From IMG/VR virus record IMGVR_UViG_3300037541_000632, positions 37,265 through 101,264 of that record: a DNA stretch of 64,000 nt; one strand, written 5' to 3'. The notes beneath the pieces are model-generated. The model saw only the letters and a list, made by a program, of their open reading frames with translations, did not search any database and had not been told where the DNA came from. The DNA comes from a virus. The translations under genes and the position numbers were made by a program. The stretch's first letter is position 1. Every line of letters starts with the position of its first letter. Positions 30,619-35,019 of this stretch are shown here, in pieces.

Positions 30619-33600
30619 TCAGTTGGTTTTGTAATTTTTATCTTCTAACAATTTAGTTTCATCTTTAGTAGGTTTCGCGGACCAGCGGTAACAAAACAGC
30701 TGATCAATAGGATAGTTCATTTTTCTTCCGTGGTACTCCCATGTGTTCTCATCCGTCATAAAGAGCTGGTGCAATTGTGCAACCTTAAATCGTTCTTCAA
30801 GAGGACAAAGAGTAACAACGGAATCATATAAAATAATCAATGGTCTAGCCTTCATGTTTAACTTGATGTAGGCATCTAGCAACCACTTACCTGCACGGGC
30901 AGCAGTGGCAGCTACACTTTCCTGCATCGGGAAGTTTCGGGCTTCTCGACCCATAGACTTAAACAGACCCATAGTCAAATGCTCATCGATATCGTCCAAG
31001 TATTTGGGGTCATGCGAAGAGAAGTGACGAATACGTCCTGAAGATGCCCGGTAATATCCAGGCTTCTCTGGAACGCGTTCCATCTTTATCAGAAAGTCCT
31101 GAGCAACTGGCTGCCGCTTTTCAAGAGCTTTAAGCAACCGCTGACCAGTACCTTCCTCGGGTTTCTTTCCTGTATCCTGTTCAATTTTACGCTCTAGAGT
31201 AGAAGCGGAGGCACCGTAAGCTGAGTTAGATATGAGTACACCATTAGCGGTAAACCTATGTCTAGGTCCTGCGTTAATTATATCGTAGACAGGCTCTTTT
31301 GTGAGCTTAAAACCCTTTTCTTCGAGTATGCTTCTAACTGCGCGTCCTCCATCCCCTGTCTCATCAATCTGTGAGTAGTAGCTACGCTGAGCTTTAAGCC
31401 AAGCCTCTCTATCTTCTGACTGATTGACTCTAACTTTGCGGATGATTTTTCCCAGGCGGCTACTAACTGCTCGTCGGATAAACCTGAGCGAATCAGTTTT
31501 CTTACAGTGCTGTCTGCAAAGCCTATACCTAAGCGAGAGGCGCGCTGTAAAGCAGACTCTTCGCGTTGCCTGGCTTTTCGAATACTCAGAGTTAACTCTT
31601 TGTGCTTGTTTACATGTGCTATTACATCCTGATCGGTTAATCCTTTCCGATACAATTTCATTATCTGTTTCTCGCCTACACTCAAGTCTAGATTCAATTT
31701 TATTAGATTTCTGGCTTGTAATACTTTCGCATTTGATAGTATTGCATTCCGACTTTTTAATTCTCCGGACTTTACTTTCTCGAATATCTCTTTTTCTGTT
31801 ACACCCATTTGAAGCATGTTCCAAATGGTCCGCATGGCCACTGGTAAATTCGGGTGCGTAGTTATTATAGCTTCTGCGCGCGTACGAAAGGACCATTTTG
31901 ATGCTCTTGTATTCCGTAGATTCATCAGCCGCGTTACAAGGCGCAAATTTTCTTTCGAGTAATGCCCGGAATTGTCTATACGATCGAAATCCAAACCTTT
32001 GAAGTTTGTAGTCGGCCATAGGTCTAAAGCCCATTGTACAAAGTCGCCTAGAGAAGTGAATAATACTTTTATCCCTCGACCTTTGTAATTTACAGAAGAT
32101 ACGTGCGTGTCTTTGTAGCAACGCTGAATCATTGCGTGATAACGGGCTCTTAACATTTTGGCTCTGGGGTCGGAACAGCGGAAGGGTTTGTTCCTCTTTG
32201 ATTTTCCAGCCGTTGATAGCGGCATCCCCGAAGCAACATTTATTTCCGTTAGCAAGCCAGATGACGTGATCTGGAGTTGCCGCCAGACCTTGATATCTGA
32301 TTGTGAATCTATTTCCTTGGTACTGTGTTCCTTCATGACTTACCCACTCTAAGCCATCCCACAGCATATCGTCAAGTGATATGTTAGTAACGAGTTTTGG
32401 CCCTGAAGGCGTGCGTACGTAGGAGTCTTTAGATATACACGAAAAATTTCCTACCTTAGCAGCACCACGGTCTTTTTTATCATCAAGCACTTCTCTTGGT
32501 TTAACATGAACCATCTCAGCTAGAGACCAGTGAAGGTCTTGCTTTGGATGTTTCAAAGAACCATCGTCTTTTCTTATTAAGGAGGGGTCATCCGGAGATA
32601 TGAGGAGGTGTTTGTATTCTTCCTGTGTGGAAGCAGGAAATACTTCATGAGGGAAAGACAGACGAACTTTCTTATCGTCTTTAGTCACTGCAAAATTTAG
32701 ATCAGGATTACAAACAATATCAATCAGGTTCTTATCGCCTGAGATAAATGCTAGTCCTCTAATTTCTGCAGTCTGATAGTCCGACTCAACGAAACACCAA
32801 CCTTCAGGTGCCTTAACACAGCTACGTATAGAAGGCACCTCAATCTTGTATTCGCCTTTAGCATCCTTAACAATAAATTTATCAAACTCTTCTGGTAATT
32901 CTCCGCGTTCTTTTATTTTACCGAACAGGTCGGATATACCATTGGAAATCATAGAGTTAACGTAGCTAGGCCAGTTTAGCGAGTTGGGCTTCCAACTGCG
33001 AGGCCGTCCAGTTTCCGTAGTACTCATCTGACCATGCACGCGATTATCGCTGCATAGATAAAAATGAAGACCGTTTTCTTTTACAACATTACCGTCAGCA
33101 TCTATGTCGGCTTCCTTGAGGAAAGCTTTGCAGATATTACCCACAGCATTCAGCTGTAGAAGTTTGCGTAAAATCCTATCGTTATTTTTTTCTGACAGAA
33201 TCTGTAGCGTTTGTTTATCTACAGCCGGATTATAATTCTTCTGCGCCTCAGGAGGCATAGACTTAATCTTCTCCCATGCCGTAGCAGGAAGTCCTTTCTC
33301 TTTGTTGCTAGTCGATTTAATCGGCTCATACCCTTTAACACTAAATAGCCAGCGTTTCAAATGTGCAGCAGATCTAATATTAAAATGGGCGCTATCAATG
33401 AAATGATCAAAGATAGCTTTCAGCTTGGGTACATCATCGGGCTTTTTGGCTGCTCCTTTGAGTACGGCCCAAGCTTGCGCATGCTCGGAATTAACAACTA
33501 AAGAAATGAACTCTAAATATTTTTCAGATGCAAGCTCAGGAGGTAGCCTGGTTGCAAATGCCATGAGAACAAAGTTCTTAGCTTCCGTATGAATATCTTC

Positions 33601-35019
33601 ACGTAGGATAACTTCCATTTTGTCTCTAGCAAATGTATATAACACTCTAAGCTCGTCCATTGTAGTGACATCCATCGGAAGTCCAACCAAGGCGAAGCTT
33701 ATAAACACATCCGTAACAAACGGATGGAAAATATCATTATAATAATCTACAAGATCTTGTATTTGCAGACTACGATAAATAAATGGCCAAGCACGGAATA
33801 CTGTGTCCACGTCCTTGCAAGCATATGGAATAAGTATGTCGTCAGGTATAGCACCGTAACCACCGTCTACCATTAAAGCTTTATTTTGCTTAACCCACAA
33901 AACAAGCTCCAGGTCATAGCGACCCAGGTCCGTGTATTTCATGGCTATACGTTCCAAGGAAAGGTCTTCAGATTCATTAGCTGTCTGCTGAGCAAACTCA
34001 GTATCGAATATACACTTCTCATACCAGTTTAGGCCTAGCACATGATGTAACCAAGGAGCATCCGCAGCAAAGTGATGCCCTATATATTTAACATGTTCCT
34101 GATCTAACCATTCAGAAAGTATAGCACCAGCTTCTTTATAAGATACATCAAATACATAGTTACCTTTGTCATCCATCCAGCGGACGTAACAAGCTTTTCC
34201 TGGAGCCCAGCAAAACTGGGTGCTACGCAGTTTACCATCGATATGATTGTTACCTGCCCACTCGCAGTCAACACTGATTACATTAAAACTATTTTGTTTC
34301 CAATTACTAACCACGCGTTTTAAATCTGCAGAGTTAGTAATTGTCTCGTAATCCAAAGCAACTCTATTTGTATTCAGATTGCATATGTCCCTATGCATTC
34401 TATTTATTTCCCGGGCCTCTGTGCGGAACTTCTCTATGTACTCGGGATTAGTTACAAGCTTATAAGTGTCGTCTATTAAATATAATTTAGCTTTATATTT
34501 TTTATTGTAAAACCAGCCACTCTTAGCATCGCTGAGAGATAGCTTAATGTCGGTAAGCAAATCAAAGATAGGCTTACCAATGCACACAATAATTTTAGGA
34601 CTAACGGCTTGTATTTCTTCCTCTAAAGATGGAAGTGCCCAGTTAACAATTTCCTTTGGTATCTTAACTCTTTCATTCTTTGGTAAAAGCCATTTAACCA
34701 AAGATGTGTAGTAGCACTTATATAAGTCTATACCCTCTTGATTAAAGATGTCAGAGAATATTACACCAGCATCTGAACGAAGGTAACGAGGCTGTACTCT
34801 AACACCCTCATTACCGTCCCTTCCTTTAATAAATCTACTAGCCTCCTGCGGTGAAATGCAAGAAGAGATAAACATTATATCTGCAGGACTTACACCCTGC
34901 CCCGCCACAAATGTTACACCATTATGCCCACGTATAGATCCAGTTTTTTCAACTAGAGATAATGGCGGTAAACTATAGTCAGGAACAGGTATTACCTTGT
35001 CCTTCTTTTGATTCTCCAT
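30619..35019 (-). CDS. polA: family A DNA polymerase with N-terminal UDG-like domain, 3'-5' exonuclease and intein
   Basis: exonuclease SVDCEW, TETGR, motif A ESDYQTAEIR, motif B RGAAKVGNFS//SAYG, RNFPMQ, motif C LYDS. Confidence 0.93.
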   Translation of the reverse strand: MENQKKDKVIPVPDYSLPPLSLVEKTGSIRGHNGVTFVAGQGVSPADIMFISSCISPQEASRFIKGRDGNEGVRVQPRYLRSDAGVIFSDIFNQEGIDLYKCYYTSLVKWLLPKNERVKIPKEIVNWALPSLEEEIQAVSPKIIVCIGKPIFDLLTDIKLSLSDAKSGWFYNKKYKAKLYLIDDTYKLVTNPEYIEKFRTEAREINRMHRDICNLNTNRVALDYETITNSADLKRVVSNWKQNSFNVISVDCEWAGNNHIDGKLRSTQFCWAPGKACYVRWMDDKGNYVFDVSYKEAGAILSEWLDQEHVKYIGHHFAADAPWLHHVLGLNWYEKCIFDTEFAQQTANESEDLSLERIAMKYTDLGRYDLELVLWVKQNKALMVDGGYGAIPDDILIPYACKDVDTVFRAWPFIYRSLQIQDLVDYYNDIFHPFVTDVFISFALVGLPMDVTTMDELRVLYTFARDKMEVILREDIHTEAKNFVLMAFATRLPPELASEKYLEFISLVVNSEHAQAWAVLKGAAKKPDDVPKLKAIFDHFIDSAHFNIRSAAHLKRWLFSVKGYEPIKSTSNKEKGLPATAWEKIKSMPPEAQKNYNPAVDKQTLQILSEKNNDRILRKLLQLNAVGNICKAFLKEADIDADGNVVKENGLHFYLCSDNRVHGQMSTTETGRPRSWKPNSLNWPSYVNSMISNGISDLFGKIKERGELPEEFDKFIVKDAKGEYKIEVPSIRSCVKAPEGWCFVESDYQTAEIRGLAFISGDKNLIDIVCNPDLNFAVTKDDKKVRLSFPHEVFPASTQEEYKHLLISPDDPSLIRKDDGSLKHPKQDLHWSLAEMVHVKPREVLDDKKDRGAAKVGNFSCISKDSYVRTPSGPKLVTNISLDDMLWDGLEWVSHEGTQYQGNRFTIRYQGLAATPDHVIWLANGNKCCFGDAAINGWKIKEEQTLPLFRPQSQNVKSPLSRNDSALLQRHARIFCKLQRSRDKSIIHFSRRLCTMGFRPMADYKLQRFGFRSYRQFRALLERKFAPCNAADESTEYKSIKMVLSYARRSYNNYAPEFTSGHADHLEHASNGCNRKRDIRESKVRRIKKSECNTIKCESITSQKSNKIESRLECRRETDNEIVSERINRSGCNSTCKQAQRVNSEYSKSQATRRVCFTARLSLRYRLCRQHCKKTDSLRFIRRAVSSRLGKIIRKVRVNQSEDREAWLKAQRSYYSQIDETGDGGRAVRSILEEKGFKLTKEPVYDIINAGPRHRFTANGVLISNSAYGASASTLERKIEQDTGKKPEEGTGQRLLKALEKRQPVAQDFLIKMERVPEKPGYYRASSGRIRHFSSHDPKYLDDIDEHLTMGLFKSMGREARNFPMQESVAATAARAGKWLLDAYIKLNMKARPLIILYDSVVTLCPLEERFKVAQLHQLFMTDENTWEYHGRKMNYPIDQLFCYRWSAKPTKDETKLLEDKNYKTN
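31225..32439 (-). mobile_element. intein in PolA motif B (405 aa, Cys1...Ser-Asn, +1 Ser)
   Basis: NFS|CISKDSYV...ATPDHVIW...PVYDIINAGPRHRFTANGVLISN|SAYG. Confidence 0.9.
31278..32336 (-). CDS. HNH homing endonuclease nested out of frame inside the PolA intein
   Basis: YHAMIQRCY...NYKGRGIKV...LDFDRIDNSGHYSKENLRLVT...N, followed by repeated helical units; real start may be ATG 32225. Confidence 0.85.
   Translation of the reverse strand: MKEHSTKEIDSQSDIKVWRQLQITSSGLLTEINVASGMPLSTAGKSKRNKPFRCSDPRAKMLRARYHAMIQRCYKDTHVSSVNYKGRGIKVLFTSLGDFVQWALDLWPTTNFKGLDFDRIDNSGHYSKENLRLVTRLMNLRNTRASKWSFRTRAEAIITTHPNLPVAMRTIWNMLQMGVTEKEIFEKVKSGELKSRNAILSNAKVLQARNLIKLNLDLSVGEKQIMKLYRKGLTDQDVIAHVNKHKELTLSIRKARQREESALQRASRLGIGFADSTVRKLIRSGLSDEQLVAAWEKSSAKLESISQKIERLGLKLSVATTHRLMRQGMEDAQLEAYSKKRVLSSQKSLSTI

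What the first reader, a model, noticed from the sequence alone, without database searches (positions are those of the whole stretch)
31225..32439. Dual-coding intein: HNH homing endonuclease overprinted out of frame inside the PolA intein
Seen: the intein frame has good Hint blocks at both ends, but its roughly 310-codon middle is Arg/Ser/Cys-rich with no recognisable motif. A second frame on the same strand (31278..32336) encodes a clear HNH nuclease (RCY...YKGRGI...DRIDN..HY..EN) plus repeated helical units. Both frames are stop-free. A naive estimate, (61/64)^310 or about 3e-7, makes chance unlikely. Established: intein endonucleases are normally in frame. Inference: a free-standing HNH gene invaded a mini-intein out of frame, and selection keeps the junk frame open because PolA must be translated through it. 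The nuclease would then be made independently (internal ATG 32225) or by frameshifting.
Basis: partly seen in the sequence, partly recalled or inferred. Interest (0 to 1): 0.88.

Follow-up and report, generated by a model that had tools for sequence, protein, structure and literature searches.

The report
Polymerase intein with out-of-frame nuclease gene
A lake phage's DNA polymerase gene carries a self-splicing protein insert (intein) whose middle also encodes, one base out of step, a separate conserved nuclease-like gene; the layout is real and kept by selection, but this kind of intein was first described in 2025-26 and this scan has met the same family before.

Summary
Observation confirmed. 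The PolA gene (30619..35019, minus) holds a 405-codon intein (31225..32439). Its two ends fold as a Hint splicing domain (Z 16 to solved inteins). Its roughly 285-codon middle is a disordered, stop-free filler. The +1 frame (31278..32336) encodes a well-folded HNH-like protein (PHROG HNH families, E 1e-21).

The open PolA frame is selected, not chance. None of 73 HNH codons that could end in T before AA/AG/GA does so, against 68/193 elsewhere. Synonymous shuffles expect 18 stops, and 0 of 200,000 were open. Four lake-metagenome assemblies show no indel.

In four related contigs, dN/dS in the middle is 0.09-0.18 in the HNH frame and 1.5-1.8 in the PolA frame; at the Hint ends the pattern reverses. 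Intein-less alleles join exactly at GNFS|SAYG.

This is a large family. Of the 80 best of more than 535 viral-contig matches, 58 carry this HNH at +1, one at +2 and none in frame. Two GenBank phages also carry it. Most members have a GGAGG-ATG signal inside the intein.

The concept is already published (Gogarten lab, 2025-26), and this scan has reported the same PolA motif-B family on other DNA. I class it as a new member of a known kind.

Caveat: the catalytic His is Arg in all members; an invariant loop Tyr suggests PacI-type chemistry.

The parts
30619..35019 (-). Family A DNA polymerase gene (UDG-like domain, 3'-5' exonuclease, PolA), 1466 codons including the intein
   Evidence: One open frame. 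Pfam hits: DNA_pol_A 7.9e-16, DNA_pol_A_exo1 1.5e-13, UDG 3.3e-8.
32440..35019 (-). N-extein (PolA residues 1-860), ending ...AAKVGNFS in motif B (O-helix)
   Evidence: Intein-less alleles L002 and L003 read KVGNFS|SAYG without a break.
31225..32439 (-). Intein, 405 codons, Cys1 ... Asn405, followed by Ser+1
   Evidence: Boundaries come from the empty alleles. C1, T55, H58 (block B), D386 and N405 are invariant in 19 family members. Fold match to inteins has Z up to 16.2.
32188..32439 (-). N-terminal half of the Hint splicing domain (intein residues 1-84), real coding in the PolA frame
   Evidence: pLDDT is above 90. PolA-frame dN/dS is 0.12-0.47 here, against 0.9-1.7 in the HNH frame.
31333..32187 (-). 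Filler: intein residues 85-369 read in the PolA frame; Arg/Ser/Lys/Cys-rich, disordered, with no constraint except absence of stops
   Evidence: pLDDT is below 50 for residues 85-339 and 356-364. PolA-frame dN/dS is 1.5-1.8, like the unused third frame. Stop avoidance is 0/73.
31225..31332 (-). C-terminal part of the Hint domain (residues 370-405, blocks F and G: VYDIINAGPRHRF...VLISN)
   Evidence: pLDDT is 87-92. PolA-frame pN is 0.10-0.24 against pS 0.59-0.87.
30619..31224 (-). C-extein (SAYGASAST... to the PolA stop)
31278..32336 (-). Overprinted HNH-like endonuclease gene, +1 frame relative to PolA, 352 codons plus a TAA that overlaps intein block F
   Evidence: PHROG HNH families at 1e-21. 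HNH-frame dN/dS is 0.09-0.18. Model mean pLDDT is 82.8. It is the only copy in the 101-kb record.
32334..32336 (-). Conserved ATG of the HNH frame (the cATGaa of His-Glu in the intein frame), one codon after an in-frame stop
   Evidence: An ATG sits here in all five members of the window's clade. That includes L004, where the PolA-frame residues are Tyr-Asp instead of His-Glu.
32193..32336 (-). N-terminal extension of the HNH protein (residues 1-48), written over the N-Hint coding sequence; disordered
   Evidence: pLDDT is below 50 for residues 1-48. The HNH frame is unconstrained here.
31896..32192 (-). Beta-beta-alpha-metal (His-Me finger-like) core, residues 49-147: RARYHAMIQRC ... YKGRGI ... 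DFDRIDNSGHYSKENLRLVT ... NLRN
   Evidence: The profile aligns with I-HmuI 1U3E at E 0.019. The best structural match is PacI 3M7K: Z 6.3, rmsd 2.5 A, 82 residues aligned. Invariant residues include R119, N122, Y126, N130, N139 and N142.
31281..31895 (-). Helical C-terminal region, residues 148-352, with four copies of a helix-turn-helix-like unit (...G-[LVM]-[TSE]-[DE]-x-[DEQ]-[ILV]...)
   Evidence: Many short, confident helices. The four repeats are seen directly in the translation. Most relatives have only the first unit. Its role in DNA recognition is inferred.

Best explanation
This is a class-1 intein inserted in motif B (the O-helix, K-V-G-N-F-S|S-A-Y-G) of a lake phage's family A DNA polymerase. 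The slot where inteins normally carry an in-frame endonuclease domain is occupied by a separate nuclease-like gene written in the +1 frame of the same strand.

How it most likely works:
1. Ribosomes translating PolA read straight through about 285 codons of meaningless, disordered filler. This is possible only because selection removes every codon pair in the nuclease gene that would make a stop in the PolA frame (NNT followed by AA/AG/GA).
2. The two ends of the insert fold into one Hint domain and splice the polymerase back together. The fold is shown; splicing itself is inferred from the invariant C1, TxxH, terminal Asn and +1 Ser/Cys/Thr, and from the essential insertion site.
3. The nuclease-like protein is made separately by internal initiation at the conserved ATG at 32336. 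This step is inferred. Most relatives have a GGAGG-(7-9 nt)-ATG signal embedded in the intein's coding sequence. This phage's own genes mostly lack Shine-Dalgarno sites.
4. The protein cuts or nicks intein-less polA alleles during co-infection, and repair copies the whole element in (homing). This step is inferred. Intein-less alleles do exist in close relatives.

The protein is a His-Me finger relative in which the general-base His is Arg. An invariant Tyr in the loop between the two strands probably takes over, as in PacI.
For: - Both frames are open and the third has about 65 stops.
- Stop avoidance is 0/73 against 68/193, and 0 of 200,000 synonymous shuffles were open.
- The same signature holds in each of 21 family members, pooled 0/1163 against 910/3160.
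- In the middle, dN/dS is 0.09-0.18 in the HNH frame and 1.5-1.8 in the PolA frame. At the Hint ends the pattern is reversed.
- The intein-frame model is confident only at residues 1-84 and about 370-405. Together these match solved inteins: Z 16.2 to 2IMZ and 15.6 to 6RIZ and 4O1R, with about 115 residues at about 2 A. The top 31 hits are all Hint domains.
- The HNH-frame model has mean pLDDT 82.8 and is disordered only at residues 1-48.
- The +1 frame matches PHROG HNH families at 1e-21, I-HmuI by profile and PacI by fold.
- Empty alleles L002 and L003 join exactly at GNFS|SAYG.
- Four independent assemblies show no indels.
- No group I intron is found in the window's PolA at E <= 1.
- In the family survey, 58 of 80 loci carry the HNH at +1, one at +2 and none in frame.
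- An ATG lies at intein codon 48 in 25 of 53 loci, and GGAG/GAGG lies upstream of the first ATG in 28 of 53.
- PacI is a published precedent for Tyr replacing the catalytic His (PMC5714182).
Against: - Nothing here shows either protein. No RNA or protein data were available.
- The canonical catalytic His is absent (R119 is invariant), so nuclease activity is an inference.
- The structural match to PacI is modest (Z 6.3, below the tool's caution line of 8). Foldseek found nothing significant.
- In this clade the ATG has no clear Shine-Dalgarno site and sits in G-rich sequence. How ribosomes start there is open.
- Pfam finds no Hint or HNH model in either frame of the window's element.
- The penultimate intein residue is Ser, not the usual His.
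- The dN/dS values come from Nei-Gojobori counts on overlapping frames, and pS is partly saturated (up to 0.8).
Confidence: 0.85

Rival explanations
1. Assembly or sequencing artefact: two compensating indels put an ordinary in-frame HNH intein out of frame.
For: Canonical HNH inteins are in frame. The window comes from a metagenome assembly.
Against: An artefact would leave about 18 stops in the PolA frame; there are none, with complete avoidance of the stop-making codon pairs. Four independent assemblies show no indel. The same +1 layout occurs in 58 of 80 related viral contigs and in two GenBank phages.
Confidence: 0.01
2. Ribosomal frameshifting rather than internal initiation. Ribosomes shift +1 after the N-Hint part and make either a PolA-N/Hint-N/HNH fusion or, with a second shift back, a conventional intein with an in-frame HNH domain.
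For: Same strand and adjacent frames. The window's ATG lacks a clear ribosome-binding site. No expression data exist.
Against: - A double-shift model gives no reason to keep 285 filler codons stop-free, yet that constraint is absolute in every member.
- The HNH frame is closed by stops just upstream of the conserved ATG.
- Most family members carry GGAGG 7-9 nt before that ATG.
- HNH residues 1-48 are disordered and unconstrained, as expected for a leader rather than a domain junction.
- I did not see a conserved slippery site in the nucleotides I inspected, but I ran no formal search.
Confidence: 0.06
3. The second frame is a relic. The nuclease-like gene no longer acts in homing (catalytic His lost), and the element persists only because it splices.
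For: R119 replaces the general-base His in all members. Some His-Me finger groups without this His are inactive (PMC5714182). The family also has HNH-less mini-intein members among the 17 loci without this HNH.
Against: - A relic would not show dN/dS of 0.09-0.18 across lineages only 66-88% identical.
- It would not keep 15 invariant residues across 34 sequences, including a loop Tyr at the PacI-equivalent place.
- It would not keep start signals.
- Close relatives differ in presence and absence (L002 and L003 are empty). In L005 the intein sits one codon upstream. Both fit ongoing mobility.
Confidence: 0.1
4. The insert is removed at the RNA level (group I intron with an intron-encoded HNH), not by protein splicing.
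For: HNH genes are common in group I introns of phage polymerase genes. Relative L006 has two group I introns in this same gene.
Against: There is no Rfam match in the window's PolA, even at E <= 1. The insert is a multiple of three, open in the PolA frame under selection, and begins with Cys and ends with Asn+Ser. Its ends are under purifying selection as protein and fold as a Hint domain. The true introns in L006 carry stops in all frames.
Confidence: 0.01

Closest known systems
Actinobacteriophage inteins with a homing endonuclease in a separate reading frame (Gosselin, Arsenault, Gogarten; bioRxiv 10.1101/2025.01.02.630785)
   Same: A contiguous intein whose endonuclease slot reads as unstructured sequence in the extein frame, while a same-strand out-of-frame ORF encodes a His-Me-type nuclease. 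Origin is proposed to be invasion of an intein by a free-standing endonuclease gene.
   Different: There the nuclease is endonuclease VII-like and in frame 3. Among host proteins the text I read names DNA polymerase III alpha, not family A PolA. It reports 63 non-canonical inteins of four kinds; the number of this kind is not stated. Here the nuclease is an I-HmuI/PacI-like protein without the catalytic His, in frame +1, in PolA motif B, in hundreds of environmental phages. I also add codon-level proof of stop avoidance and a conserved internal SD-ATG, neither of which I saw in that text.
Cyanobacterial dnaX intein with an out-of-frame LAGLIDADG endonuclease (Phillips, DeSimone, Gogarten; bioRxiv 10.64898/2026.09.14.751524)
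   Same: [quoted passage not shown]
   Different: LAGLIDADG, +2 frame, a cellular gene (dnaX). Here the nuclease is HNH-like, +1 frame, in phage PolA.
ShiLan insertion: hidden out-of-frame HNH in a mycobacteriophage methylase (Arsenault et al., Genes 2025, PMC11855218)
   Same: An HNH gene out of frame inside a host gene whose own frame stays open across it. The stop lies at the very end of the insert, and how translation starts is unresolved.
   Different: ShiLan has no splicing domain and is thought to stay in the protein as a loop. Here the insert has a complete Hint domain and sits in an essential helix, so it must splice.
Fractured genes: split inteins with a free-standing endonuclease gene between the halves (Dassa et al. 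2009, PMC2677866)
   Same: A free-standing homing endonuclease gene inside an intein's endonuclease slot, with its 3' end overlapping the downstream intein half. The same intein family also occurs in this form: L071 and L090 have IntN, a GIY-YIG-like gene (recognised by eye, no family search) and IntC as three ORFs.
   Different: In fractured genes the host frame is broken and splicing is in trans. Here the host frame is kept open and splicing is in cis.
I-HmuI (PDB 1U3E) and PacI (PDB 3M7K/3LDY), His-Me finger nucleases
   Same: The beta-beta-alpha-metal core aligns with I-HmuI, an HNH homing endonuclease. From memory, I-HmuI is encoded in a group I intron of the SPO1 DNA polymerase gene. The best fold match is PacI, which also lacks the catalytic His and uses a loop Tyr.
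   Different: Arg sits at the I-HmuI His75 position. There is no Pfam HNH hit. In the window's clade the N-terminal zinc ribbon is deleted and there are four helical repeats. PacI is a restriction enzyme, not a homing enzyme.

Membership tests
Intein (Hint splicing domain, class 1) | Hint fold formed by the N- and C-terminal parts | tested here: met
   Model residues 1-84 and 370-405 have pLDDT about 90. Z is 16.2, 15.6 and 15.6 to the Mtu RecA, gp41-1 and NpuDnaB inteins, with about 115 residues at 1.9-2.8 A. The 31 best hits are all Hint domains.
Intein (Hint splicing domain, class 1) | Catalytic residues: Cys/Ser1, block B TxxH, terminal Asn, +1 Cys/Ser/Thr | tested here: met
   C1, T55, H58 and N405 are invariant in 19 members. 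The +1 residue is S, C or T in all 21. The penultimate His is not conserved (Ser in the window).
Intein (Hint splicing domain, class 1) | Precise in-frame insertion, with an empty allele that joins the exteins exactly | tested here: met
   L002 and L003 read KVGNFS|SAYG.
Intein (Hint splicing domain, class 1) | Protein splicing actually occurs | not testable with these tools
   Inferred from the invariant residues and from the insertion site in PolA motif B.
Intein (Hint splicing domain, class 1) | Match to curated sequence models (Pfam Intein_splicing, Hint_2, PT-HINT) | tested here: not met
   No Pfam hit at E <= 0.1 for the window's intein. Relatives give weak hits only (L028: 1e-4, below the cut-off). 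The fold evidence outweighs this.
HNH / His-Me finger endonuclease | Beta-beta-alpha-metal fold | tested here: inconclusive
   PacI Z 6.3, rmsd 2.5 A, 82 residues. Foldseek shows only weak HNH rows. The profile matches I-HmuI at E 0.019. PHROG HNH families match at 1e-21.
HNH / His-Me finger endonuclease | General-base His at the end of strand 1 | tested here: not met
   R119 aligns with I-HmuI His75 and is invariant in 34 sequences.
HNH / His-Me finger endonuclease | Structural Asn and metal-binding Asn/His in the helix | tested here: met
   N130 and N139 align with I-HmuI N87 and N96 and are invariant.
PacI-type His-Me finger (Tyr replaces His) | Conserved Tyr in the loop between the two strands | tested here: met
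   Y126 is invariant in the DRIDN-x-G-x-Y loop. The PacI mechanism is as described in PMC5714182. That Y126 is structurally equivalent to the PacI Tyr was not checked residue by residue.
Homing endonuclease (functional class) | Cleaves the element-free allele; the element shows presence/absence among close relatives | tested here: inconclusive
   Presence/absence and a one-codon shift of the insertion site are seen. Cleavage is not testable here.
Out-of-frame (overprinted) intein endonuclease, as published 2025-26 | Endonuclease ORF in another frame; extein frame open but unconstrained across it; purifying selection on the endonuclease frame | tested here: met

The most novel reading that the evidence does not exclude
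Overprinting is not a transient accident here. It may be the obligate, adaptive design of an old two-gene mobile element. In 59 HNH-bearing members of this PolA motif-B intein family, the nuclease is never in frame. The start signal (GGAGG-ATG) is built out of conserved intein codons (K-E-V ... Y-D-G). PolA-frame ribosome traffic across that signal could then throttle nuclease synthesis, tying nuclease dose to polymerase expression. The disordered filler would spare the Hint domain from having to fold around a DNA-binding protein.
Probability: 0.25. Interest if true: 0.7.

Novelty: new member of a known kind. Interest (0 to 1): 0.5.

Why it matters
Inteins are taught as in-frame fusions of a splicing domain and an endonuclease domain. 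This family shows a stable alternative at large scale: two proteins from one stretch of DNA, one of them a meaningless read-through kept open purely by synonymous-site selection.

It is a clean natural example of how strongly avoiding stops in another frame can shape codon choice (0 of 1163 risky codons end in T). It supports the view that inteins acquire endonucleases by invasion of free-standing genes.

It also explains why annotation pipelines label these genes simply as DNA polymerase and miss both the intein's nuclease and, often, the intein itself.

Practically, the culturable carriers (a Streptococcus constellatus prophage and a Gardnerella phage) would let overlapping translation, splicing with a 285-residue disordered loop, and a His-less His-Me nuclease all be tested directly.

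Tried and rejected
- Megablast of the PolA gene against GenBank phages found no match. The closest cultured polymerases are below 25% identical.
- Pfam found nothing for either frame of the element apart from a sub-threshold DUF433 hit.
- Foldseek of the HNH model against the PDB found nothing at E <= 0.001.
- The helical repeats gave only weak, non-specific three-helix matches (Z <= 5.3), so I assign them no fold.
I therefore could not view the contexts of the metagenome proteins P0003-P0029 and used viral-contig loci instead.
- No RNA holder was listed among the sequencing runs, so there is no expression evidence either way. Only contigs, not raw reads, were available to lay.
- I looked for an in-frame HNH version of this intein family among the 80 loci and found none.
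- I searched the phage's own 101-kb record for free-standing paralogues of the HNH gene and found none.
- My first regular expressions for the intein boundaries failed and were corrected. Three loci (L012, L017, L021) still escaped the boundary pattern and were left out of the pooled codon count.
- In the wider pooled count, 5 of 2640 risky codons ended in T. Automatic ORF delimitation gave implausibly short ORFs in at least L067, L069 and L109. I did not trace which loci the five come from.
Full report
**What is there**

The window's minus strand carries one 1466-codon open frame, 30619..35019, with UDG-like, 3'-5' exonuclease and family A polymerase domains. Residues 861-1265 (31225..32439) are an insert that begins with Cys and ends with Asn, followed by Ser.

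Two close relatives from viral metagenome contigs (L002, L003; 89-92% identical polymerase) lack the insert and read KVGNFS|SAYG straight through. That fixes the boundaries to the codon. The site is polymerase motif B (the O-helix).

Within the insert, the PolA frame and the +1 frame (ORF 31278..32336, 352 codons) are both free of stops. The third frame has about 65.

**Is the double open frame more than chance?**

A stop arises in the PolA frame whenever a codon of the +1 gene ends in T and the next begins with AA, AG or GA.
- Of 73 such positions where a T-ending synonym exists, none uses T. Elsewhere in the same gene 68 of 193 do.
- Shuffling synonymous codons within the gene gives on average 18 stops in the PolA frame, and none of 200,000 shuffles was open.

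This also disposes of the compensating-indel idea, because an artefactual frame would carry those roughly 18 stops.

Contigs from four lake-water metagenome runs of four studies cover the region without any insertion or deletion. One spans it all with eight substitutions.

**Which frame codes for what?**

The +1 frame matches PHROG families annotated as HNH endonuclease (E 1e-21).

Four related contigs (L001, L004, L005, L006) have the same two-frame layout, with nuclease identities of 46-88%. L001, L004 and L006, which align with the window over the full length, were used for the substitution counts below.
- Across the middle of the insert, Nei-Gojobori dN/dS is 0.09-0.18 in the +1 frame. It is 1.5-1.8 in the PolA frame, no better than the unused third frame at 1.1-1.4.
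- At the first ~70 and last ~17 codons the pattern reverses. The PolA frame gives 0.12-0.47, or pN far below pS.

Folding agrees with this.
- The PolA-frame product is confident only at residues 1-84 and about 370-405, and is below pLDDT 50 in between.
- The two confident ends together match solved inteins, with Z up to 16.2 and about 115 residues at about 2 A. The 31 best hits are all Hint domains.
- The +1-frame product is well folded (mean pLDDT 82.8) except for its first 48 residues, which are exactly the part written over the N-terminal Hint sequence.

No group I intron signal is present in the window's gene, even at E <= 1. The same search finds two genuine group I introns in the L006 polymerase.

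**A family, not an oddity**

Searching viral contigs with the nuclease profile gave 24 further loci. In 20 of them the nuclease lies in the +1 frame of a spanning ORF, and in every case that ORF is a family A polymerase of some architecture.

All 20 carry the same intein (CIAEGQ.VLT ... WDGVEWV.HEG ... VYDI.NAGPRHRF ... SN). It sits in motif B in several registers, with a Cys, Ser or Thr as the +1 residue. Pooled over 21 members, 0 of 1163 risky codons end in T, against 910 of 3160 others.

Searching with the intein profile matched more than 535 stretches. The best 80 break down as follows:
- 57 have this nuclease at +1 with the host frame open across it.
- 1 has it at +1 with the host frame closed (L083).
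- 1 has it at +2 (L106).
- 17 lack this HNH; about a dozen of them are mini-intein-sized, with matches of 121-158 aa.
- 4 matches do not start at Cys1; three of these (L071, its duplicate L072, and L090) are split forms.
- None is in frame.

Two GenBank genomes have the same +1 layout under a gene annotated only as DNA polymerase. They are Streptococcus phage Javan113 and Gardnerella phage vB_Gva_AB1.

L004 also has a second, unrelated 276-codon intein at TGRPR|C...HN|SWKPN. Its +1 frame encodes a classical Pfam HNH_3 protein with a helix-turn-helix. It shows the same stop-avoidance signature: 0/39 against 44/100, and 0 of 20,000 shuffles open.

**How the second protein is probably made**

In the window's clade an ATG at intein codon 34 (window 32336) is kept in all five members. 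That includes L004, where the overlapping intein residues differ.

In most of the wider family the first ATG lies at codon 48 (25 of 53) or codon 44 (7 of 53). It is usually preceded at 7-9 nt by GGAGG or GAGG, built from the intein codons for K-E-V ... Y-D-G.

That is a translation-initiation signal embedded in coding sequence, and it argues for independent initiation rather than frameshifting. This phage's own genes mostly lack Shine-Dalgarno sites, so the absence of one at 32336 says little.

**What kind of nuclease?**

The core aligns with I-HmuI. N130 and N139 fall on its Asn87 and Asn96, but R119 falls on the general-base His75. R119 is invariant in 34 sequences, as is Y126 in the loop between the two strands.

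The best fold match, though modest, is PacI (Z 6.3). PacI is the published case of a His-Me finger enzyme that lacks the His and uses a loop Tyr (PMC5714182). I therefore call the protein HNH-like, with PacI-type chemistry as the working inference. Activity is unproven.

The window's clade has lost the N-terminal Cys4 ribbon that L004, L005 and most relatives keep. It has four copies of a helix-turn-helix-like unit where most relatives have one.

**Comparison with what is known**

The general design is published.
- An out-of-frame LAGLIDADG in the cyanobacterial dnaX intein, with frame-specific selection (bioRxiv 10.64898/2026.09.14.751524).
- A hidden HNH in a non-splicing methylase insert (PMC11855218).

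In the searches I ran I found no paper describing this PolA motif-B family. However, this scan has already reported it on other genomes: 61 notes in at least 48 genomes, several of them confirmed.

**Verdict**

It is a new member of a known, recently described kind.

Noticed in passing
L004:6073-6900 (intein); L004:6275-6853 (+1 ORF): There is a second, unrelated intein in the same polymerase of a relative, at TGRPR|C...HN|SWKPN. It also carries a +1-frame endonuclease, this time a classical Pfam HNH_3 protein with an HTH. Stop avoidance is 0/39 against 44/100.
   Followed up: partly
L004:4204-5250 approx.: The same polymerase has a third intein, at PYA|C...N|CKDVD. It appears canonical, with an in-frame LAGLIDADG-like motif (LLGDGG) recognised by eye; no family search was run.
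   Followed up: no
L006:4998-5227 and L006:7312-7590: Two group I introns (Rfam RF00028, 89 and 71 bits) interrupt the PolA gene of a relative, at TETG|RPR and NFP|MQES. The first lies within a few codons of the L004 second-intein site.
   Followed up: partly
L071:341-3943 and L090:275-3943: The same intein family also occurs as a fractured gene. A polymerase N-part with IntN, a GIY-YIG-like gene (recognised by eye, no family search) and IntC with the polymerase C-part are three separate ORFs.
   Followed up: partly
L106:2677-3465: This is the only member found with the HNH-like gene in the +2 frame of the polymerase (HMM E 1.5e-32). The host frame is still open across it.
   Followed up: no
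L083:620-3691: A high-GC member in which the host frame closes shortly after the N-Hint part, while the HNH gene is intact. It could be a split form, a decaying form or an assembly error.
   Followed up: no
window 32404..32439: In two of four lake metagenome runs, the contigs laid on the window break at or next to the intein's N-terminal junction (32439). This would fit co-existing intein-plus and intein-minus alleles confusing the assemblers. It is only a hint.
   Followed up: no
L034:1781-4264 (-) and L034:3752-4258 (+): A distant relative of the HNH-like gene lies antisense inside an 827-codon ORF that has no Pfam match. It may be an antisense overprint in another host gene.
   Followed up: no
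window, extein codons flanking 31225 and 32439: Intein-bearing alleles use TTT-TCG / TAC-GG or TTC-AGC / TAC-GG around the junction. The two empty alleles use TTC-AGT / TAT-GG. These are synonymous differences that could mark the nuclease's target or immunity site; the sample is too small to judge.
   Followed up: no
window, all genes: Upstream regions of the phage's genes are A/T-rich and mostly lack Shine-Dalgarno motifs. The DNA recurs in many lake-water metagenome runs. The record is a 101-kb viral contig estimated to be 56% complete.
   Followed up: partly
L013:106-4911, residues 545-804: This relative's polymerase also holds a conventional intein with in-frame NUMOD4 and HNH_3 domains, in addition to the motif-B intein with the +1 gene. 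Both designs co-exist in one gene.
   Followed up: no
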